In this document: in pieces, positions 1 to 49,383 of the stretch
How the letters are laid out: each line of letters begins with the position of its first letter
How positions within the stretch are numbered: position 1 is the first letter of the stretch
Assembly: GCA_038825875.1 (NCBI GenBank)
Contig: JAWBOS010000003.1
Location: forward strand, 1,786-65,785
DNA length: 64,000 nucleotides
Direction of reading: 5' to 3'
Origin: Candidatus Woesearchaeota archaeon
GTDB lineage: Archaea; Nanobdellota; Nanobdellia; Woesearchaeales; JAWBMQ01
Position numbers and translations under genes: made by a program
Notes under the pieces: generated by a model
The model's database searches: none
Told to the model about the DNA's origin: nothing
What the model saw: only the letters and a program-made list of their open reading frames with translations

Positions 1-736
1 CATATTCTCCTCCAAGAGAGAATACATAATCTGCTCTCCTTAACATTTCTTTGGTTTCTGCTGTGATATTTGCCATATAGACCTTTTTTTCACCTGTTTC
101 CTTTTCTGCTTTGTCTCTTAAATTTAAAGTTTTTTCAATTCTTTCTTCAAATCTATTAAATGATTGACTGGTTAGATTTTCGTCATCCTTTACAATGTCC
201 AAGCCTCCAACCCATGCAGCATAGGCGATCTTTGCGTGTTTTGCTGAACTTAAACCTACTTTGGGTTTTACAATAGTTCCTAACAGTGGTCTCTCATAAA
301 CTTTTAACAATTGTCTTATTCCCTTTATTCCAAAAGCAGGACCTGAATAAAGTTTTAGAATCTTTTGTGGGAATAGAATGTCAATTAACCTTAAATTTTT
401 TACTGCTTTCATACCAAATATGTTTCCTGCTAATGCAGAAAGAATTTGAGGAACAGAAGTGCCTTCAAAAAGTTCAGAGGGATATGCTATTTTTATTGTA
501 GATTTTTCCTTATTGATTTCAAATACTGAGGGTTTGAGATTTTCAAATATTTGAGGTTCTAATGACCAAAAGGATGTCCATGTGTCAATGGAGCTTTCAC
601 CAGCAACCTTATCTGCAACTTCCTCTAAGGAATAGTTTTTATTTGGTTCTAAATAGTAGTATGCAACAACATCATTCTTTGTAGGAGCATAGGTTAAATC
701 TATATACTTTAAAGACTTTAGATTTTGATTTTTCAT
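1..736 (-). CDS. rbcL: RuBisCO large subunit, form III (archaeal type). N-terminal part only; the gene continues past the window start.
   Basis: Reverse-strand translation from the ATG at 736 reads MKNQNLKSLKYIDLTYAPTKNDVVAYYYLEP...GTIVKPKVGLS...GGLDIVKDDENLTSQSF. These are the canonical RuBisCO large-subunit motifs (GxxxKPKxGLS and the GGLDxxKDDENxxSQxF loop). AGGTGA sits 5 nt upstream of the ATG. The ORF track missed it because it is truncated at the window edge. Confidence 0.85.
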   Translation of the reverse strand, partial: MKNQNLKSLKYIDLTYAPTKNDVVAYYYLEPNKNYSLEEVADKVAGESSIDTWTSFWSLEPQIFENLKPSVFEINKEKSTIKIAYPSELFEGTSVPQILSALAGNIFGMKAVKNLRLIDILFPQKILKLYSGPAFGIKGIRQLLKVYERPLLGTIVKPKVGLSSAKHAKIAYAAWVGGLDIVKDDENLTSQSFNRFEERIEKTLNLRDKAEKETGEKKVYMANITAETKEMLRRADYVFSLGGEY

Positions 737-808
737 AAATTCACCTAATAAACATCATTTAAAAAACGAGTCAATACTTAAAAAATTTTTTTTACCACTA
801 ATCAAAAG

Positions 809-1713: not shown

Positions 1714-2175
1714 ATGAAAAAACGATACTTTTATATATTAGTTTATGCTAGTAGTTTATTAATGGTAATGTTATTTGACATTTACAATCTGCCAGAAGAT
1801 ATTTATGAAATTGTTTTTTCAACAAAAGCTCAAACAGTGGTTGCAAAAATTTTAGTTGATATGATGAAATCCGAAAATGGAGAAATAACCAAATCAGAAA
1901 TGTCTCTGTTTGCTAATAGATTGCATGAGGGAACCCTTATTGAGCCTGTTCAGAGTACAGTAAAACTTCCTCAGAAAGAAGTGAGCATATCTTACAATAA
2001 GAGACAGTTTTATGATAGAATATTAACACCTATGAAATCGATGGGAATGATTGATTATGATATGTATAAGAAAACATACAAATTATCAGATAAGTTCAAC
2101 AAGGCAATGATTAAGATTGGTTTATTATGGCTTCAGGAATTGAAAAACCCTCCGGGACTGAGATTCAAGAAATAA
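1714..2175 (+). CDS. Hypothetical protein
   Basis: 153-aa ORF with host-like AT-rich codon usage and a hydrophobic N-terminus. No motif recognised. Confidence 0.4.
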   Translation: MKKRYFYILVYASSLLMVMLFDIYNLPEDIYEIVFSTKAQTVVAKILVDMMKSENGEITKSEMSLFANRLHEGTLIEPVQSTVKLPQKEVSISYNKRQFYDRILTPMKSMGMIDYDMYKKTYKLSDKFNKAMIKIGLLWLQELKNPPGLRFKK

Positions 2176-2351: not shown

Positions 2352-4058
2352 ATGAAAAAAGGATCTTTGAAAGGATTTGCTTTTTTGTTTATCTTTCCTT
2401 TAATAGTTTTTTATCCTAATCCTTTTGATGAATCGAATGAGGGATTTTTTGTTTTAGCTCCAGAAAATATGAATCTTAGTGTAACTGTTGTTGATTTGAG
2501 AAATAATAACACAAAAAATTTATCAATCAGATCAGAGGATTTATATTCTACAAATATTGGAATCTTGAGATCTTTGAGTTTTTACGCAGGTTCACTAGTA
2601 AATACAAAAGCAAATTATTCTATAATTCTTTTCTATAATGATTCGAACTATGAATCTTTTATTTCTTATAGTTCGGCAAAAGAAGGTTGTGTTTATCTGT
2701 TTTCAAGTAACAAGTTAAATAGGCAAGAGATTTGTTTTGATAATGATTCTTCAGATCATATCATAAGTACAGTCTTAGAAAGTATTTTTGAGGAATTAAC
2801 CTTACAAATCAATCCTCAAACAGGTTCTGACTACAATATTAATGAGCAAGAGTTTGTTCTAGATGATGTTGAAGAAACTTTTAAAACAAACCCTTCTTTT
2901 GATGTAGAAATTGATGAGGCCTTTTATGAAGATGAATACATAGTATACACAATTGTGAATAAGAATTGTTCACAATCTTTTAAAAAAGAGGTTTTAGGTT
3001 TTGATATTTTTGGGAAGTCTGTGTATAGAAGTTTTTCAGATAGTAAAATTGCTACAAGACGAACATTTAGAATTAGCTTAAAACCAGGCGATTATAGTTT
3101 AATAATTTCCTGTGGTGATGAAAAGATTATAAGAAATTTTAGTGTTATTCCTCAAGGAGATTTATGTGAGAGTATATTTAATGGAATGGTTATTTTGAAT
3201 AATAGCCTTTCATTTCCATTTAAAGCAAATTGTAAATTTAAAATAGTCTGTGTTTATCCTTCTTATTATGAAAAGGATTTAGATATCTCTAAGACTGCTG
3301 TTGTTAAGCAGAGTTCTATTGCGTGCGATGTAATGAAGATTATTTTTAAAGAAAATGTTAGATATTTTTTATCTCAAGAGTTTCTTAGGGAATTAGAGGA
3401 GTTTAGAGAAAACGGCGATTTTTTTAGTACTGCTAGAATAGACATTTTTCTATGGCAAAAATGGGTATTTGGAAATAAAAGCGATACAAAGATCATCAAA
3501 TTTTTGAGTATTTACCCAAGAACATTTGGATATGAATTAGAATTTTTCAATAAGACTAAATTTTCAAATGATTCCTTAGAAATTATTTTTGATGATAAAT
3601 TTCTAATTAATGTATCTAATCAGACATACTTAAACAGAACTGAAAGGTTATTATTTTCTGCAGGAGCCTATGTTTTGAAGAGTCAAAAGAATTCCAAGGA
3701 AAAACCATTTTTACTGTTTGATTATAACTTTTCAGTTGAAGGAATTCAAATTTTTTCCATAAAAATTAACTGTATTTCAACAAACGAGTGTTTAAAAGAA
3801 GACTTTGTTTTTATTAGTGCTGCTACAACAAATATTACTCAGTTAAACAAAAGCTTAAACTTGCAGGAAAATATTTTGGAAATTCGTAACAATAGTGTAG
3901 AAAATGTTTATTATCCAAAAGAGGTAGAAACAATTCTAGAGGACAGTTCTATGAATTCTGAAATAGTTGAAAAAAATAAAAGTAAATCCAGATTTTGGCA
4001 AAGAATAAGTGAATTTTTCAGGAGAGTTCAAGGGTTATTTATAAAGAATCCAAAATAG
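2352..4058 (+). CDS. Secreted or surface protein with an N-terminal signal/anchor and many N-glycosylation sequons.
   Basis: 568 aa. The N-terminus MKKGSLKGFAFLFIFPLIVFYP is hydrophobic. More than 20 N-x-S/T sequons are present (NLS, NNT, NYS, NDS, NKS, NQT, NRT, NIT, NNS...). No catalytic motif recognised. Confidence 0.55.
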   Translation: MKKGSLKGFAFLFIFPLIVFYPNPFDESNEGFFVLAPENMNLSVTVVDLRNNNTKNLSIRSEDLYSTNIGILRSLSFYAGSLVNTKANYSIILFYNDSNYESFISYSSAKEGCVYLFSSNKLNRQEICFDNDSSDHIISTVLESIFEELTLQINPQTGSDYNINEQEFVLDDVEETFKTNPSFDVEIDEAFYEDEYIVYTIVNKNCSQSFKKEVLGFDIFGKSVYRSFSDSKIATRRTFRISLKPGDYSLIISCGDEKIIRNFSVIPQGDLCESIFNGMVILNNSLSFPFKANCKFKIVCVYPSYYEKDLDISKTAVVKQSSIACDVMKIIFKENVRYFLSQEFLRELEEFRENGDFFSTARIDIFLWQKWVFGNKSDTKIIKFLSIYPRTFGYELEFFNKTKFSNDSLEIIFDDKFLINVSNQTYLNRTERLLFSAGAYVLKSQKNSKEKPFLLFDYNFSVEGIQIFSIKINCISTNECLKEDFVFISAATTNITQLNKSLNLQENILEIRNNSVENVYYPKEVETILEDSSMNSEIVEKNKSKSRFWQRISEFFRRVQGLFIKNPK

Positions 4059-4067
4059 AATTAAGCT

Positions 4068-4622
4068 TTAAGCTTCTTTTCTCGAGAACAAAATCTTTTG
4101 ATTATATCCATATAAACCAATGGATTTCATCTGTTCGTATTGATCTTTGGTTAATGCCAAGTATAGAATATTATATTTGAATTTGTTATACGTTTCTTGG
4201 GCTATGTTCTTTATATATGTTAGATCTATATTTTCTCCTAGCAAGATGAGACTTGCAGAATTTTCCTTTTCCTGACCTTGAAGAATTACTTCTTCCACGT
4301 TAGGATTGTTCTTTACTTGATTCAAGAAAAATTCCAACCCTGAAGGAAGTAGTTTTATTATACTTCTTAGAAATTCTGAAGTTTTGTTTTCAGCAAGTGA
4401 GTAAAGTTTTAGTTTGTTTATTTCTTCTACTTTTACGATTTCCAGGCTCTCTAATTTTTTAAGGATCCTGTGAGTAGAGGAAATGGGTACTTTGCTTTCA
4501 GAGGATATCTCACTCATTCTCATTTTTAGGTTGGTGTTTTTTATAAGGATTTTTAGAATATTGACTATTTTTGGATCTATAAGCTTAATAAGTACTTCTT
4601 CAGGACTGGGAGGACTGGCCAT
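4068..4622 (-). CDS. Winged helix-turn-helix transcriptional regulator
   Basis: 184 aa. The N-terminal segment MSEISSESKVPISSTHRILKKLESLEIVKVEEI has the pattern of an ArsR/TrmB-like HTH recognition helix. The gene is divergent from ftsZ and has a repeat array in the shared intergenic region. Confidence 0.55.
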   Translation of the reverse strand: MASPPSPEEVLIKLIDPKIVNILKILIKNTNLKMRMSEISSESKVPISSTHRILKKLESLEIVKVEEINKLKLYSLAENKTSEFLRSIIKLLPSGLEFFLNQVKNNPNVEEVILQGQEKENSASLILLGENIDLTYIKNIAQETYNKFKYNILYLALTKDQYEQMKSIGLYGYNQKILFSRKEA

Positions 4623-4660
4623 AATATGCTAAAGATATCTTTATTTATAAATATTGTGTA

Positions 4661-4783
4661 TTTTTCATTTTTGAAAATTGTTTTTCATTTTTGGAAAATA
4701 TTTTCATTTTTGAAATTTTCAAAAAAATTATTTTTCATTTTTGAAAGGAATTTTTTAGTATACTATTCATTTTTCAAAAATTT
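4661..4783. promoter_or_regulatory. Array of 4-5 direct repeats of TTTTTCATTTTTGAAA at ~20-bp spacing, with an embedded palindrome TTTTGAAATTTTCAAAA. Candidate operator sites in the regulator/ftsZ divergent intergenic region.
   Basis: Read directly from the sequence. Units start at 4661, 4681, 4701 and 4731, with an inverted variant TCATTTTTCAAAAA at 4767. The 20-bp period equals two helical turns. The array lies immediately upstream of the minus-strand regulator start (4622) and ~250-350 bp upstream of ftsZ. Confidence 0.6.
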
Positions 4784-5020
4784 CTATTTAAAACTTTAAA
4801 ATTTTTAGTTTTTATGGCTTAAAAATGCAAAATATTTTTTTAGTTTTTAAAATAAAAAAATTTATAAATTGATGTTATATATTAGTTATTTCTGTTTGTG
4901 TTTAATTATAAATAGAAACCTTTATATATTACTTTTTTCTAATACGGAATAACCCTCATTCTGTTATTTGTTGAGGGTACTTATGATTAATATAAAGAAT
5001 AAAAAAATGAGGTGAAAAGA

Positions 5021-6091
5021 ATGAATTTCCTAGTGCAAAATGCAATAAAAACCCAAGAAGCTATGCAAGAGCAAGGTTTGGATGAATTTGATGCCTATAA
5101 GGCAACTATAAAGGTTATAGGATGTGGTGGGGCTGGTAATAATATGGTAAATTGGCTCTACCAAAAAGGAGTATATGGAGCTCAAGTGATTGCTGTCAAT
5201 ACTGATGCTCAACATTTGAAAATTACTGAGGCACATACAAAAATTCTGATTGGTAGGGAATTAACACGCGGTTTGGGATGCGGAGGTTTTCCTGAAAAGG
5301 GTGAAGAAGCAGCTAAGGAAAGTATGAACGAAATTAGAAAAGCATTAGAGGGAGCAGACATGGTATTTGTATGTGCTGGTATGGGAGGAGGAACTGGAAC
5401 AGGTAGTGCTCCTGTTGTGGCAAGAATTGCAAGAGATTTGGGAGCAATTGTTATTGGTACAGTTACAATGCCATTTGATGTGGAGAGAGCAAGAATAGAT
5501 AAGGCAGAAATTGGTTTAAGAAAATTAAGAGAGCACTGCGACACTGTCATAGTAATAGATAATAATAGACTTGTTAAGGTTGCAGGTAATTTGCCAGTAA
5601 AGCAGGCATTTGCCGTAGCAAATGAGATAATAGCTACTATGATTAGAGGTATTGTGGAAACTATAGCAAAGCCCAGTTTGGTTAATCTAGATTTCGCAGA
5701 TGTAAAGGCAATTATGAGTAATGGTGGAGTTGCAGCAATTGGAATAGGAATGTCTAATACCAAAAACAGAGTTGAGGAAGCAGTTCAAGCAGCACTAAGC
5801 AATCCTCTATTGGATATAAATTATGAGGGAGCTACAGGTGCATTAGTTCACGTCGCAGGTGGTCCAGACATGACACTAGAAGAGGTTAATCGTGCAGTTT
5901 CTTTAGTTACTGCCTCCATGAGTCCTGATGCAAATGTGATCTTTGGAGCAAGAATTGATGATGAATTAAAGGGACAACTTATGATTATGACAATAATTAC
6001 AGGAGTCAAGTCTCCTTGGATCCTTGGAAAACCAACGAAAGAGGAAACTAAGGCTGCTTTTAGAGAGGAATTGGGAATTGAGTTGCTGTAA
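5021..6091 (+). CDS. ftsZ: Cell division GTPase FtsZ
   Basis: The tubulin/FtsZ signature GGGTGTG is present (VCAGMGGGTGTGSAPVVA), as are the N-terminal GCGGAGNN GTP-binding loop and NxDxxxL motifs. The ORF track begins at a GTG at 5012. The ATG at 5021, with GAGGTGA 5 nt upstream, is the more plausible start. Confidence 0.92.
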   Translation: MNFLVQNAIKTQEAMQEQGLDEFDAYKATIKVIGCGGAGNNMVNWLYQKGVYGAQVIAVNTDAQHLKITEAHTKILIGRELTRGLGCGGFPEKGEEAAKESMNEIRKALEGADMVFVCAGMGGGTGTGSAPVVARIARDLGAIVIGTVTMPFDVERARIDKAEIGLRKLREHCDTVIVIDNNRLVKVAGNLPVKQAFAVANEIIATMIRGIVETIAKPSLVNLDFADVKAIMSNGGVAAIGIGMSNTKNRVEEAVQAALSNPLLDINYEGATGALVHVAGGPDMTLEEVNRAVSLVTASMSPDANVIFGARIDDELKGQLMIMTIITGVKSPWILGKPTKEETKAAFREELGIELL

Positions 6092-6179
6092 AATTAACTT
6101 TTTTTTAATTTCTTGTTTTTTTATTGTCATATTCTTTTTCTAGTGTTTTGTTCAGAATTTTTTTCTTAAACTAACTTTT

Positions 6180-6349
6180 GTCATTAAAAAAAAGACGAAG
6201 TGAATTTTGAATAAGAAAGTCAAGCCAAGCAAAAAGAAAAGCTAAGCAAATCTTAACATAAGTCAAATAGAAAAGTAGAAGAAAAAAGTTAAGGTAAAAG
6301 CCAAGCGAAAAGAACTCACAAAAAAACCTAGGAAAAAAGCTAACTAGAT
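6180..6349. repeat. Purine-rich tract (plus strand) with degenerate AAGC(C/T)AAGC repeats, lying between ftsZ and the foreign-composition ORFs.
   Basis: The plus strand is almost entirely A/G (gtcaagccaagcaaaaagaaaagctaagcaaatc ... aaaagccaagcgaaaagaac ... aaaaaagctaactag). The complementary T-rich strand would serve as a transcription stop for the minus-strand island genes. Confidence 0.4.
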
Positions 6350-7273
6350 TTACTTAGCATATCTGATCTCTCGATCAAGCCAACATGCATCCTCTCGATG
6401 ATAATCTATCAATCCATGCTCATCTAAATCTTTCATGAACTTGTCGTAAAACTCGGGCTTCCATATAGCTTCCTTCCATGCCCTGTCTAACCCTTCATAC
6501 CCCAATAACATCTGCGGTGTCTCTAACAAATCTGGCCTCCTACGATAGATGTTCTTTAACTTCTCTAGGTACTTCAAATAATACTCCTCTGCTGAAAACC
6601 AAAAACCTAACTCATGAAACACATTCATATCTAGCTTTAAGTTCTTATATTTCCTAACTCTCTCACTATACCCTGCTTGCGTGAATATCATGTTCATTGT
6701 CTTTATCATCTGCTCCAAAAATGCTGATTCCGCATCCGTATAATAACCTCTAACCTTGATCTCTGGATCCTGATTGTTCAACATCTTGTAAAATGGTGAA
6801 TCAAACTTGTCTAAATACTCCAATATCTTGTCCATCATATGATTGATAATTATATTCTGCGATGCTATGATATATTTCATCCCTCTTAATCTGTCCCTAT
6901 CATAGTACTTAGAAAAAATATAATCCCATAAGTAACCATTTATCGCATCATTTATACCTGGATATTTCTTCTCCAACTCCTGATAATAGTTATTTAATAC
7001 CTTGGGATCTAAACCTAGAGAACCAAAATTCCCCTTAACTATCTCCACTGCCTCCTTCTCTGTCTTGAAAAACTGCTGCCCTGACCACATATCATATGCC
7101 CTCAATCTCCATGGTGTAACAAAATTTAAACCATCCAATATTCCACTCAAATAACTCGCTGGATTTGTGTATATTATTGGATTATTCCTTTGATTTTTGT
7201 CAAAAACAATGTCATACCATCTCATACTATATATGTTTCCAGATGGTGCAAGTCGATTTAGATGATAAACCAA
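6350..7273 (-). CDS. Hypothetical aromatic-rich protein of foreign composition (downstream ORF of the island pair)
   Basis: 307 aa. It is W/Y/R/D-rich (WRLRAYDMWSGQQFF, GYLWDYIFSKYY, GFWFSAEEYYLKYL, WKEAIWKPEFY). Local GC is ~38% against ~28% for flanking genes, and codons are G/C-ending, unlike the rest of the window. No family recognised. Confidence 0.5.
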   Translation of the reverse strand: MVYHLNRLAPSGNIYSMRWYDIVFDKNQRNNPIIYTNPASYLSGILDGLNFVTPWRLRAYDMWSGQQFFKTEKEAVEIVKGNFGSLGLDPKVLNNYYQELEKKYPGINDAINGYLWDYIFSKYYDRDRLRGMKYIIASQNIIINHMMDKILEYLDKFDSPFYKMLNNQDPEIKVRGYYTDAESAFLEQMIKTMNMIFTQAGYSERVRKYKNLKLDMNVFHELGFWFSAEEYYLKYLEKLKNIYRRRPDLLETPQMLLGYEGLDRAWKEAIWKPEFYDKFMKDLDEHGLIDYHREDACWLDREIRYAK

Positions 7274-7287
7274 TTCAGGATTTATAA

Positions 7288-8157
7288 TTATTGAATATTT
7301 AGAAATCTCTCGAATCCTTGAAAACAGTGAACCTGAATATGGTCTGCAAACATAGTATTTCCTAATACTCTTAAAAATGGATGCTTGTAGGATGTAAGTA
7401 AATAATAATACACTACATTATCATTAACCCTTGTTAATAATTTCACACTATTGTATATCTGTTGAATCAAATCATCTCTATCCTTTAACACCAATCTACC
7501 ATTTCTCTCTATCCTCGGCCTGTATTGAAGACTCTTATCATCTAACCAATCCTCAAATACTATTGAATTTATTACCTCTACCCTAAAATTCTTCCTCAAT
7601 CTTGCTATTAAATCTTCCCTATCTATCCTCTCTGGCTGCCTATCTACCTCTTGTATGTATATCATCGGATCCAACTCCATCACTACATATAACCCTGCTG
7701 TCTCAAAATATGGCTTCTTACTCGGTATCTCTACTGCCTTGTACTTAGCTCCTTCATCTACATAACCTCCTGCCAACCTCTGCGATTTACCTAGAAAATG
7801 TAAATGATATGGAAATGTATGAGCTCCATCACATCTATCCCACCACCCTGGCTTTTGAGGAACTTCTCCCTTCCACACACTAGCTGCAAAATATTCATCT
7901 GACAAAATTCTTTTATATCTTCTTATATCATCTTTTAAATATGAGTAATCTATTTGATTTGCTAACACTATACTCTCTAGGGTATTGGTATGTTGCTTTT
8001 CCTTAATCTCTACTCTTATCTCATTGCCTCTTTCTAATGGTCTATCTTTAATTCTATCTACTATTGCTTCTTGGGTTATGCCTAATAATGTAGGTAATAA
8101 CGACACTCCAACTACAAGATTCTTTAAGCCTTTCTCTAATCTTACCATTTTATCCAC
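7288..8157 (-). CDS. Hypothetical protein of foreign composition (upstream ORF of the island pair). May be the N-terminal part of a single frameshift-split gene with 6350..7273.
   Basis: 289 aa, containing WWDRCDGAHTFPYHLHFLG. It has the same atypical composition as the adjacent ORF. The two ORFs are co-directional and separated by 14 nt in different frames. Confidence 0.5.
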   Translation of the reverse strand: MDKMVRLEKGLKNLVVGVSLLPTLLGITQEAIVDRIKDRPLERGNEIRVEIKEKQHTNTLESIVLANQIDYSYLKDDIRRYKRILSDEYFAASVWKGEVPQKPGWWDRCDGAHTFPYHLHFLGKSQRLAGGYVDEGAKYKAVEIPSKKPYFETAGLYVVMELDPMIYIQEVDRQPERIDREDLIARLRKNFRVEVINSIVFEDWLDDKSLQYRPRIERNGRLVLKDRDDLIQQIYNSVKLLTRVNDNVVYYYLLTSYKHPFLRVLGNTMFADHIQVHCFQGFERFLNIQ

Positions 8158-48042: not shown

Positions 48043-49383
48043 TCAATAGATATAGTTGTTTTTAATGGCTTCGGAGTATTCCTTTTCTGATGATTCTATC
48101 TGTTCTTTTAGAGAAACCTTAACTTTTTCAATTGGAACTTTTAAATATGTTTCTGCGGGAACTTTTTGCTTATTGAGAATGTGAGGATTATGTTCTTTTA
48201 AGATATGCGAATCAATGCCATATTTTTTTGATAACTCTTCCCAGGATGTTGGTTTTTCTAAGAAATAATGGGAATATATAGTTTTTTCATATTTTTTCTC
48301 TAGATATCTTGGAATAATTTCATGCCAAGAAATACAACCAATTATATATTTTTTCCCGCTATTTTTGAATTCAGGATACGTTTCTTGAAGAGTTAAATCT
48401 TTGATTAGATCTATTAATTTTATATCATATTTCTTTATAATTTCCGCGTTTATGTTTTCAGGATTAATATTTTCTTTGTAAAAGGTTTTTAGATGAGTTG
48501 AAATCATCCTTTTTACCTTATTTTCACCAAGATGATAAGCTAAAACAGTTAGATCCCATCTATATAGTCTGTTGTTTAATCTTCGTAGATATTGGAGTGC
48601 TGAGTCTATACTTTTCTCTGGATGAAATCTTTCTTCTACATCATTTGTTACTTTCATTCCCATTAACCATGCAGTACTGAGGCTTATTTGATATATTCCT
48701 TTATCATTTGATTGCTTGTTTACTGATTTTATGGTTCCATCAGTTTCATAAAGCATAATTCCAATTGCTGCAGGAAGTGGAATATTGTATTGAACACATT
48801 TTTTGAAAATATGATCATAGTATTGGTTTAGCAATCTCATCCTTAAGTCTATTCCTTTTTCATATCCTAAAAGTCTTTTTTCATATGACTTTACTTCTTC
48901 ATATAACCACTTTACTTCATCTAAGAAATAATCTCCCAAAAAGATAGAATACTTCTTTTGGAATTCTTCCACATCAGAGGTTTGAATGAAATATTTCTTT
49001 AACAGCGAGGATTCTTGAGAATTATTGGCTATATCTTCCAAAGTGTAGGTTTTACTTAAAGGTTCATTTGGTTCTTTTATTTCAGGAAATAATTTTTTAT
49101 CGTGGAAAAATTTTTCTAGTAGTTCATTAATAAAATTTTTAAAATCTTGATTTGCTTTTTCAAAATGTTTTTTAATTTGATCATAAGTTTTGTCAAGCTT
49201 CTCTGAAAAAGGAGCAACAATTTTAGATCCTCTATCTAAAAACCATTCATAGGATTCATTCATTTTTCTCTTAAGTTCTTCAGGCGGTATTTTAGAACAG
49301 AGATGAATTGTTGAAAGTATTCCTATTGTAGCTAAGGTAGCTCTAATTATTCCCTTTCCTTGAGATTGTTTGTTACTTTTCAT
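48043..49383 (-). CDS. Membrane-anchored or secreted lytic-transglycosylase (SLT) domain protein with a C-terminal LysM-like domain.
   Basis: The N-terminal hydrophobic anchor is GIIRATLATIGILSTIHLC. The SLT-like motifs are IGIMLYETDG (catalytic E-S/T), KGIYQISLSTAWLMG (GLMQ-like) and LAYHLGENKV (AYNxG-like). The C-terminal YFLEKPTSWEELSKKYGIDSHILKEHNPHILNKQKVPAETYLKVP fits the LysM consensus. Confidence 0.5.
   Translation of the reverse strand: MKSNKQSQGKGIIRATLATIGILSTIHLCSKIPPEELKRKMNESYEWFLDRGSKIVAPFSEKLDKTYDQIKKHFEKANQDFKNFINELLEKFFHDKKLFPEIKEPNEPLSKTYTLEDIANNSQESSLLKKYFIQTSDVEEFQKKYSIFLGDYFLDEVKWLYEEVKSYEKRLLGYEKGIDLRMRLLNQYYDHIFKKCVQYNIPLPAAIGIMLYETDGTIKSVNKQSNDKGIYQISLSTAWLMGMKVTNDVEERFHPEKSIDSALQYLRRLNNRLYRWDLTVLAYHLGENKVKRMISTHLKTFYKENINPENINAEIIKKYDIKLIDLIKDLTLQETYPEFKNSGKKYIIGCISWHEIIPRYLEKKYEKTIYSHYFLEKPTSWEELSKKYGIDSHILKEHNPHILNKQKVPAETYLKVPIEKVKVSLKEQIESSEKEYSEAIKNNYIY

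What the first reader, a model, noticed from the sequence alone, without database searches (positions are those of the whole stretch)
4623..5020. A 20-bp-period TTTTTCATTTTTGAAA repeat array between a wHTH regulator and ftsZ suggests a cell-division regulatory module
Four to five near-identical 16-17-mers start at 4661, 4681, 4701 and 4731, with an inverted variant at 4767. Their spacing is two helical turns, and a perfect palindrome TTTTGAAATTTTCAAAA lies at 4707-4723. They fill the divergent intergenic region between the winged-HTH regulator (4068..4622, minus strand) and ftsZ. Such phased arrays are typical cooperative binding sites for wHTH dimers or oligomers. The arrangement recalls small regulators adjacent to ftsZ genes in other archaea. 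The regulator family is not assignable from sequence.
Basis: partly seen in the sequence, partly recalled or inferred. Interest (0 to 1): 0.62.

Follow-up and report, generated by a model that had tools for sequence, protein, structure and literature searches.

The report
Self-operator of an ftsZ-linked archaeal regulator
The repeats are real and are most likely the binding sites through which a small DNA-binding protein of Woesearchaeota (DPANN archaea) controls its own gene; that gene sits next to the cell-division gene ftsZ in nearly all relatives, but direct control of ftsZ by these repeats is not shown.

Summary
Observation confirmed. Four copies of the 14-bp dyad TTTCATTTTTG(A/G)AA start at 4663, 4683, 4702 and 4733. 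No other strong copy occurs in the 64-kb window.

In about 70 related loci from Woesearchaeota MAGs and metagenomes, the same dyad (TTYCA-WWWW-TGRAA) occurs in 2-4 copies. The period is 19-20 bp. It always lies directly upstream of the TATA box of the orthologous regulator gene: 55 of 57 loci carry a site, against a background of 0.017 per 140 nt. No phased pair occurs anywhere else in about 470 kb.

The array follows the regulator gene through rearrangements. Where ftsZ has a separate upstream region, the motif is not enriched there (4 of 42). The best reading is therefore a cooperative auto-operator of the regulator.

The regulator is an undescribed family: a winged helix-turn-helix domain plus a C-terminal domain with the minimal-nucleotidyltransferase (MNT) fold that lacks catalytic residues. 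Its gene stays within about 3 kb of ftsZ in at least four arrangements while other flanking genes differ. That supports a functional link to cell division. CdrS, the known ftsZ-linked regulator, is reported absent from DPANN.

Nothing was tested experimentally. Control of ftsZ is inferred.

The parts
4068..4622 (-). Regulator gene (184 aa). The product has an N-terminal winged helix-turn-helix and a C-terminal alpha/beta domain with the minimal-nucleotidyltransferase (MNT) fold that lacks catalytic acidic residues.
   Evidence: Pfam matches cover only the HTH: TrmB 25.3 bits, IclR 22 bits; all 24 family members hit HTH models only. AF2 models have pLDDT 91 and 92. Foldseek matches the N-terminal domain to AF1382/ArsR-SmtB/MarR. 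It matches the C-terminal domain to 2rff and the MNT antitoxins 8xeo/7ae2/5yep/6m6w/1no5, TM 0.49-0.62. The family has 99 representatives at E<=1e-30 and 280 at E<=1e-10.
4644..4651 (-). Predicted TATA box (TTTATAAA, self-complementary) of the regulator gene. It spans -29 to -22 relative to the A of the ATG, which implies a leaderless mRNA. No Shine-Dalgarno sequence lies upstream.
   Evidence: Read directly from the sequence. A TATA-like element sits at the same distance from the ATG in the orthologous loci. It is conserved with L002. The promoter assignment is an inference; there are no transcript data.
4663..4676 (.). Operator site S1, TTTCATTTTTGAAA. It lies 11 nt from the TATA box. In most relatives this gap is 2-5 nt, so their S1 overlaps the BRE position.
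   Evidence: (17.0 bits).
4683..4696 (.). Operator site S2, TTTCATTTTTGGAA.
   Evidence: 16.7 bits.
4702..4715 (.). Operator site S3, TTTCATTTTTGAAA.
   Evidence: 17.0 bits.
4717..4721 (.). Orphan half-site TTTCA. With the right half of S3 it forms the 8+1+8 palindrome at 4708-4724.
   Evidence: Read from the sequence. It is conserved in L002. No full dyad is present here.
4733..4746 (.). Operator site S4, TTTCATTTTTGAAA, 31 bp after S3.
   Evidence: 17.0 bits. It is conserved in L002.
4764..4778 (.). Only one half-site is intact, and it is probably not a functional full site.
   Evidence: Two mismatches. It is absent from matrix hits of 9 bits or more. It is not conserved in L002.
4922..4929 (+). 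Best candidate for the ftsZ-proximal TATA box (TTTATATA). A second conserved TATA-like block lies at 4861-4868.
   Evidence: The blocks AGAAAC-TTTATATA and AAATTTATAAATTG are conserved with L002. The assignment is inferred; the 17%-GC region has many TATA-like strings.
4936..4949 (.). Weak dyad match TTTCTAATACGGAA between the ftsZ-proximal TATA candidate and the hairpin. It is probably a chance match.
   Evidence: 11.4 bits, rank 14 in the window. It is not conserved in L002. Matrix hits in separate ftsZ upstream regions are rare, 4 of 42 loci including this one.
5021..6091 (+). The ftsZ gene, with Shine-Dalgarno sequence GAGGTGA at 5009-5015. It is syntenic with the regulator across the family.
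   Evidence: TIGR00065, 417 bits; Tubulin and FtsZ_C domains. The closest solved structure is M. jannaschii FtsZ1. Synteny is shown.

Best explanation
The array is the operator of the adjacent regulator gene.

Proposed mechanism:
- Dimers of the 184-aa protein each recognise one 14-bp dyad, TTYCA-WWWW-TGRAA. The protein has a winged helix-turn-helix domain plus a catalytically dead MNT-fold domain.
- Dimers on neighbouring dyads, 19-20 bp apart with only about 5 bp between sites, bind cooperatively. This builds a short nucleoprotein filament immediately upstream of the gene's own BRE/TATA box, on a leaderless gene.
- In most family members the strongest site is the second one. The weaker gene-proximal site overlaps the BRE position. 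This fits concentration-dependent negative autoregulation by occlusion of TFB/TBP.
- In this window's lineage the array is expanded to four equally strong sites and sits 11 nt from the TATA box. The sign of regulation here, repression or activation, is therefore open.
- The distal end of the array faces whichever gene is transcribed divergently: a nitroreductase gene in most relatives and ftsZ here. It may co-regulate that gene.

Shown by computation: the sites, their non-random occurrence, their conservation, phasing and position, their exclusive association with the regulator gene, the protein's folds, and the regulator-ftsZ synteny.

Inferred: that this protein is the binder, cooperativity, the sign of regulation, and any effect on ftsZ.
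For: 1. Four sites at one mismatch or fewer lie within 85 bp and none elsewhere in 64 kb; 0.47 are expected per 64 kb. Only these four score 16 bits or more with the family matrix, against 0.45 expected.
2. Window versus L002 footprint: the regulators are 71% identical. Dyad positions are 55/56 identical (98%), against 68% and 65% for the rest of the intergenic region.
3. Out-of-sample test: the matrix was built from 17 loci and applied to 57, about 40 of them new. 55 of 57 have at least one site within 140 nt upstream of the regulator ATG, and 49 have at least two. Background is 0.017 per 140 nt over 402 kb.
4. Every phased pair (sites of 9 bits or more, 18-21 bp apart) in about 470 kb lies upstream of a regulator gene. 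There are none elsewhere, including the full window.
5. The architecture is fixed: site 2, 5 nt, site 1, 2-5 nt, TATA, about 22-26 nt, ATG. Site 2 has a median of 17.9 bits and site 1 a median of 14.4 bits.
6. The array moves with the regulator gene in the divergent, divergent-plus-nitroreductase, tandem, convergent and ligase-inserted arrangements.
7. The recognition helix (S/T)(S/T)(F/Y/H)RIL is nearly invariant (T50, R52, I53). This matches the invariant DNA core.
8. A close mechanistic precedent exists. Ss-LrpB binds three regularly spaced 15-bp palindromes with an A/T centre in its own control region, one dimer per site, cooperatively (PMC1802622).
Against: - There is no experimental binding, transcript-start or expression data. 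Another factor could bind the array.
- No clear covariation was found between half-site variants (TTTC/TTCC) and recognition-helix residues.
- In this window site 1 does not overlap the BRE, so the repression mechanism inferred for the family may not apply here.
- The 19-bp period is 1.8 turns of canonical B-DNA. "Same-face" binding holds only if the A-tract-rich DNA has about 10 bp per turn, or if the complex is superhelical.
- Only 64 kb of this genome and about 10 kb per relative could be scanned. A wider regulon cannot be excluded.
Confidence: 0.75

Rival explanations
1. The array is a bidirectional control element that directly regulates ftsZ transcription. This would act here through the shared intergenic region, in relatives through a nitroreductase-ftsZ transcript, or through regulator-ftsZ read-through. 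This is the first reader's cell-division module in the strict sense, and it is compatible with autoregulation.
For: - ftsZ lies within about 3 kb of the regulator in every locus that has enough sequence on both sides. This holds in at least four arrangements and across clades, while other flanking genes differ.
- In about 46 of 49 ftsZ-containing loci, ftsZ is on a strand and side where it could be transcribed from a promoter that flanks the array.
- In nitroreductase loci the last site lies 3-28 nt from the divergent TATA box.
- CdrS is reported absent from DPANN, so that role is not known to be filled there.
Against: - Separate ftsZ upstream regions have their own conserved promoter-like elements and no motif enrichment, 4 of 42 loci.
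- Here the ftsZ TATA candidates lie 115-175 bp beyond the last full site.
- T-tracts follow the regulator stop codon in tandem loci.
- Three loci (L019, L024, L035) are incompatible with transcription of ftsZ from an array-flanked promoter.
Confidence: 0.3
2. The protein is not primarily a transcription factor. It is a site-specific DNA anchor that works with FtsZ, in the manner of a nucleoid-occlusion, positioning or centromere-like factor. The array next to its own gene would be its chromosomal loading site.
For: - The linkage to ftsZ is tight even though no operator lies at ftsZ promoters.
- The C-terminal surface-helix motif QYEQM..GL is invariant and could be a protein-protein interface.
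- The winged-helix centromere-binding protein AspA of pNOB8 (4rs8), which binds next to its own gene, is among the fold matches.
Against: - The array abuts the TATA box at a fixed 2-5 nt in most loci. That placement is the signature of promoter control.
- Only 2-4 sites are present.
- No partner gene of the ParA or SepF type is conserved alongside.
- Nothing is known about any interaction with FtsZ.
Confidence: 0.07
3. The dyads are bound by a different regulator, global or encoded elsewhere, that controls this gene. The adjacent protein binds something else.
For: No experiment links the protein to the motif, and no covariation was detected.
Against: The motif occurs nowhere else in about 470 kb and always travels with this gene. 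That is the pattern expected of an autoregulator, not of a global factor.
Confidence: 0.07
4. The repeats are origin-recognition-box-like elements of a replication origin, or are chance low-complexity repeats in AT-rich DNA.
For: - The intergenic region is long and AT-rich (17% GC).
- The dyad TTTCA..TGAAA loosely resembles mini-ORB cores as I recall them. This resemblance comes from memory and was not tested.
Against: - No orc1/cdc6 gene lies within 4 kb or among the AAA+ ORFs checked, which are RFC subunits.
- In relatives the array sits in 110-190-bp spacers between two promoters, with no room for an unwinding element.
- Chance is excluded.
Confidence: 0.02

Closest known systems
Ss-LrpB of Sulfolobus solfataricus and its own control region (Lrp/FFRP family)
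   Same: - An archaeal regulator binds several regularly spaced palindromic boxes upstream of its own promoter.
- Each box has conserved half-sites and an A/T-only centre.
- One dimer binds per box, binding is cooperative, and the complexes formed depend on concentration (PMC1802622).
   Different: - The protein architecture differs: Lrp has an HTH plus a RAM domain, whereas this protein has a winged HTH plus an MNT-fold domain.
- The box differs: TTGCAAAATTTGCAA (15 bp) against TTYCAWWWWTGRAA (14 bp).
- The dyads here are packed at 19-20 bp.
- Here the gene is linked to ftsZ.
CdrS / CdrL - ftsZ2 locus of Halobacteria and other Euryarchaeota
   Same: A small DNA-binding protein gene keeps conserved synteny with an ftsZ gene. 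In haloarchaea it is implicated in control of cell division (PMC7439475, PMC8406309).
   Different: - CdrS and CdrL are ribbon-helix-helix proteins.
- cdrS is co-transcribed with ftsZ2.
- CdrS is reported in all major archaeal groups except DPANN.
- Here the protein is a winged HTH plus MNT-like domain with its own promoter and operator.
- The linked FtsZ is closest to M. jannaschii FtsZ1.
- The arrangement varies: divergent, tandem, or with an intervening gene.
TrmB / IclR / MarR-type winged-helix regulators
   Same: The N-terminal winged HTH matches these Pfam HTH models and ArsR/MarR-like structures. Like archaeal TrmB-family regulators (from general knowledge), the outcome probably depends on site position relative to the BRE/TATA.
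   Different: - Scores are at or below the Pfam gathering thresholds.
- None of the C-terminal effector domains of those families is present.
- The C-terminal domain has the MNT fold.
MNT (minimal nucleotidyltransferase) antitoxins of HEPN-MNT systems
   Same: The C-terminal domain shares their fold: 2rff, 8xeo, 7ae2, 5yep, 6m6w and 1no5, TM 0.49-0.62.
   Different: - There is no sequence-level match.
- The Gly-Ser...Asp-x-Asp catalytic signature is replaced by HG...KANVLLL, with no conserved acidic residues.
- No HEPN partner gene is present.
- The domain is fused to a DNA-binding domain.

Membership tests
TrmB family (PF01978 HTH plus TrmB_C sugar-binding domain) | TrmB-type HTH scoring above the Pfam gathering threshold | tested here: not met
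   25.3 bits against a cutoff of 25.6 for the window protein. 23 of 24 family members hit at E<=1, best 2.1e-6.
TrmB family (PF01978 HTH plus TrmB_C sugar-binding domain) | C-terminal TrmB effector (sugar-binding) domain | tested here: not met
   No Pfam hit beyond the HTH. The C-terminal domain has the MNT fold.
IclR family | HTH_IclR plus the C-terminal IclR effector domain | tested here: not met
   HTH_IclR scores 22.0 bits, equal to the cutoff. No IclR C-terminal domain is present, and the protein is only 184 aa.
CdrS/CdrL cell-division regulators | Ribbon-helix-helix fold (PF01402) and co-transcription with ftsZ2 | tested here: not met
   The fold is a winged HTH, not RHH. The gene has its own promoter and a variable orientation relative to ftsZ. 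CdrS is reported absent in DPANN.
Autoregulated transcription factor with tandem operators (functional class) | Repeated, phased, dyad-symmetric sites adjacent to the core promoter of the factor's own gene and conserved in orthologues | tested here: met
Autoregulated transcription factor with tandem operators (functional class) | The protein binds these sites and changes its own transcription | not testable with these tools
   This needs EMSA or footprinting and in vitro transcription or reporter assays.
MNT / Pol-beta-type nucleotidyltransferases | Catalytic G[SG] ... D-x-[DE] motif | tested here: not met
   There are no invariant acidic residues in the corresponding strands. The consensus is IILHGxxxKxKANxLL. 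Similarity is at the fold level only.
Archaeal replication origin (ORB / mini-ORB arrays) | Adjacent orc1/cdc6 gene and an AT-rich unwinding element flanked by ORBs | tested here: not met
   No Orc1/Cdc6 among the neighbouring ORFs. Orthologous arrays lie in 110-190-bp promoter spacers.

The most novel reading that the evidence does not exclude
The winged-HTH/MNT-like family is the Woesearchaeal (DPANN) counterpart of CdrS. It would be a dedicated cell-division regulator, or a DNA-anchored partner of FtsZ. Its phased auto-operator would set its own dosage, and its conserved linkage to ftsZ1 would reflect direct control of, or physical cooperation with, the division ring. This would be the first candidate division regulator in DPANN archaea.
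Probability: 0.3. Interest if true: 0.7.

Novelty: new variant of a known kind. Interest (0 to 1): 0.55.

Why it matters
Control of cell division in DPANN archaea is essentially unknown. The only characterised ftsZ-linked archaeal regulators (CdrS/CdrL) are reported absent from that group.

This locus provides three things:
- A defined, previously undescribed regulator family: about 100 clusters at E<=1e-30, none with a Pfam model for the full protein.
- A precise 14-bp recognition motif with a fixed promoter architecture.
- A gene linkage to ftsZ that has survived several rearrangements.

Together these make a concrete hypothesis testable with recombinant protein and synthetic DNA, even though the organisms are uncultured. 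If the link to ftsZ proves to be only positional, what remains is a clean but ordinary example of an autoregulated archaeal transcription factor.

Tried and rejected
- Regulon search in the window. The matrix finds no further site of 16 bits or more and no phased pair outside 4663-4746. The mild excess at 10-12 bits (24 against 12.9 expected) is partly the array itself and was not pursued.
- The weak dyad at the ftsZ core promoter (4936-4949) is not conserved in L002, so it is treated as chance.
- Covariation between half-site variant and recognition-helix residues showed no clear pattern.
- Rfam search on 4400-5200 gave no hit at E<=1.
- The 57-aa ORF at 4626..4799(+) across the array was rejected. 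It is a T-rich translation artefact, and L002 has indels relative to the window within this stretch.
- Origin of replication was rejected.
- Sequence searches for the C-terminal domain gave nothing in Pfam or PDB sequences. Only the fold search was informative.
- The first word-indexed homologue search found only 3 proteins. The profile searches were needed to see the family.
No collection-wide DNA-motif scan was possible.

Full report
**1. Observation**

The window is about 30% GC. It comes from a Candidatus Woesearchaeota MAG (source names).

Between the regulator gene 4068..4622(-) and ftsZ 5021..6091(+) lies a 398-bp intergenic region of 17% GC. Its regulator-proximal part carries TTTTCATTTTTGAAA at 4662, 4701 and 4732, and a one-mismatch copy at 4682. 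Each unit is itself a dyad, TTTCA-N4-TGAAA.

No other copy with one mismatch or fewer occurs in 64 kb. The expectation is 0.47 per 64 kb at window composition, and 0.0035 per 100 bp even at the composition of the intergenic region.

The palindrome is at 4708-4724. The array covers about 87 bp of the 398 bp.

**2. Flanking genes**

- ftsZ is certain: TIGR00065 at 417 bits, plus Tubulin and FtsZ_C domains. The closest solved structure is M. jannaschii FtsZ1.
- The 184-aa protein has an N-terminal winged helix-turn-helix. Pfam TrmB, IclR and HTH_24 models score at or just below threshold.
- All 24 aligned family members hit only HTH models.
- AlphaFold models are confident, with pLDDT 91 for the full length and 92 for the C-terminal domain.
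- Foldseek matches the N-terminal domain to AF1382/ArsR-SmtB/MarR-type winged helices.
- Foldseek matches the C-terminal domain to minimal nucleotidyltransferases: 2rff and the MNT antitoxins 8xeo, 7ae2, 5yep, 6m6w and 1no5, at TM 0.49-0.62.
- The family alignment has no conserved acidic residues where the nucleotidyltransferase catalytic motif should be. The most conserved feature is a C-terminal QYEQM..GL helix. I read the C-terminal domain as a catalytically inactive MNT-fold module. It would serve dimerisation, cooperativity, or ligand or partner binding; this is an inference.

**3. The family and its loci**

- A word-indexed search found only three proteins.
- A profile search found 27.
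- A full HMM search of 1.84 billion representatives found 99 at E<=1e-30 and 280 at E<=1e-10, nearly all 170-190 aa.
- DNA for about 70 loci was fetched.

**4. The array is a phylogenetic footprint tied to the regulator's promoter**

- Window versus L002, whose regulator is 71% identical: the dyad positions are 55/56 identical, while the rest of the intergenic region is 65-68% identical.
- In every one of the first 17 loci, with regulators down to 31% identity, 2-4 copies of TTYC-N6-GRAA lie 32-44 nt upstream of the regulator ATG at 19-20-bp steps.
- The consensus from 47 sites is TTYCA-WWWW-TGRAA. Positions 5 and 10 were not part of the search pattern, yet are 84% A and 84% T.
- The matrix was then applied to 57 loci, about 40 of which were not used to build it. 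55 have at least one site of 11 bits or more within 140 nt upstream of the regulator, and 49 have at least two. Background is 0.017 per 140 nt in 402 kb of flanking sequence.
- All phased pairs found anywhere in about 470 kb, including the whole window, lie upstream of a regulator gene.
- The layout is fixed: site 2, 5 nt, site 1, 2-5 nt, TATA box, about 22-26 nt, ATG. This implies a leaderless transcript and a proximal site that overlaps the BRE position.
- Site 2 is the strongest (median 17.9 bits) and site 1 is weaker (median 14.4 bits). This design suits nucleation at site 2 followed by cooperative, concentration-dependent filling of the BRE-overlapping site, that is, negative autoregulation.
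- The window and L002 are outliers. They have four equally strong sites, and site 1 lies 10-11 nt from the TATA box (TTTATAAA, 4644-4651).

**5. Relation to ftsZ**

tblastn shows ftsZ within about 3 kb of the regulator in every locus that has enough sequence on both sides. The one exception is a truncated 83-aa paralogue. Several arrangements occur:

- Directly divergent: the window, L002, L005, L008 and L018.
- Divergent with one nitroreductase-family gene in between: 29 loci, plus 11 truncated contigs that show the nitroreductase gene.
- Regulator upstream of ftsZ on the same strand: 12 loci.
- Convergent: L024.
- With a DNA ligase gene inserted: L019.
- One other arrangement: L035.

Other flanking genes are not conserved between clades. 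On a neighbour-joining tree the nitroreductase arrangement occurs in two major clades and is probably ancestral. The tandem form defines one clade, and the window belongs to a directly divergent clade.

Linkage that survives several rearrangements argues for a functional tie between the regulator and ftsZ.

However, the array always stays with the regulator gene. Where ftsZ has its own upstream region, that region lacks the motif (4 of 42 loci with a hit of 11 bits or more, near background). It carries different conserved elements instead. In the window the ftsZ TATA candidates (4861-4868, 4922-4929) lie 115-175 bp beyond site 4. The single weak dyad at 4936-4949 is not conserved.

Direct control of ftsZ by the array is therefore possible but not indicated by operator placement.

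**6. Mechanism, stated with its limits**

Most likely (0.75), the array is the cooperative auto-operator of the winged-HTH/MNT-like protein. The family-wide layout favours autorepression by BRE/TATA occlusion. In this window the sign of regulation is uncertain.

A bidirectional role that includes ftsZ is a compatible add-on (about 0.3). The minor rivals are a DNA-anchor or FtsZ-partner role, binding by a different factor, and a replication origin. No orc1/cdc6 gene lies nearby.

**7. Comparison with known systems**

- The closest mechanistic precedent is Ss-LrpB. It binds three regularly spaced 15-bp palindromes with an A/T centre in its own control region, one dimer per site, cooperatively (PMC1802622).
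- The closest biological analogue is CdrS/CdrL-ftsZ2. These are ribbon-helix-helix proteins co-transcribed with ftsZ2 and are explicitly reported in all major archaeal groups except DPANN (PMC7439475).
- The protein fails the membership tests for TrmB, IclR, CdrS and catalytic MNT (see the membership table).
- Full-text searches found no paper that combines Woesearchaeota, ftsZ and helix-turn-helix.

**8. Verdict**

The feature is real, non-random and conserved. The mechanism is of a known kind: an autoregulated transcription factor with phased operators. The protein family, with its domain architecture and persistent ftsZ linkage, is undescribed, so I rate it a new variant of a known kind.

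Interest is 0.55. The finding is solid and testable, and it could open the question of division control in DPANN archaea. The cell-division claim itself rests on synteny alone.

Noticed in passing
window 4952-4978; L002 about 4135-4168 (- strand): A hairpin (ACCCTCA-N13-TGAGGGT) lies between the ftsZ-proximal TATA candidate and the Shine-Dalgarno sequence. L002 has a hairpin of different sequence (CCAAAACAC..GTGTTTTGG) at the same place. More distant loci carry short palindromes just downstream of the ftsZ TATA box, for example L011 TTTTGCATAATGCAAAA. This could be a 5'-UTR structure or a second operator.
   Followed up: partly
L010 1727-2096, L011 3810-4155, L012 4913-5135, L014 4452-4779, L015 2911-3257 (gaps between the nitroreductase gene and ftsZ): The ftsZ upstream regions of the nitroreductase clade share several elements. 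There is a distal promoter-like block TATATTCT-N5-AATAGAAATATTTAAATA. It is followed by about 150 nt rich in GGTTTGG repeats, then a proximal TATA box (AGTATATAA) with TTTTGYAT, then the Shine-Dalgarno sequence GAGGTGGTGTAAAATG. This may be a small RNA or a long structured leader. The window region 4760-4830 (TATTTAAAA ... GGCTTAAAAAT) may be the equivalent.
   Followed up: partly
L010-L015, L023, L027, L036-L041 and others; absent from the window: A nitroreductase-family gene (about 210-246 aa, PF00881) sits between the regulator and ftsZ in most relatives. It is the gene actually divergent from the operator array there. No homologue is detectable anywhere in this 64-kb window (tblastn best E = 2.2).
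   Followed up: partly
window 6350-8157 (- strand): Two ORFs without Pfam hits (307 and 289 aa) lie on the opposite strand between ftsZ and the thymidylate kinase gene. In the close relative L002, ftsZ is followed directly by thymidylate kinase. GC skew flips here (-0.29 for 6001-8000). This looks like a lineage-specific insertion.
   Followed up: no
window 48043-49383 (- strand): A 446-aa ORF has a lytic transglycosylase SLT domain (PF01464, E = 6e-16). This is unusual for an archaeon and is possibly relevant to a host-associated DPANN lifestyle.
   Followed up: no
window 2352-4058 (+) and 1714-2175 (+): A 568-aa protein rich in N-x-S/T sequons and a 153-aa protein lie downstream of the regulator. 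Neither has a Pfam hit. Both are conserved with L002 only, where the first is 744 aa.
   Followed up: no
window about 1-740 (- strand, cut by the window start): This ORF is homologous to the RuBisCO large-subunit gene of L002 (PF02788/PF00016 there). It is a form-III-type RuBisCO of the kind reported in DPANN archaea; the type assignment is from general knowledge.
   Followed up: no
L016 and L010/L012/L013/L017 record titles: Several contigs that carry this Woesearchaeal regulator-ftsZ locus are deposited under other names ("Alphaproteobacteria bacterium", "uncultured Methanosarcinales archaeon"). These are probably binning or labelling errors.
   Followed up: no
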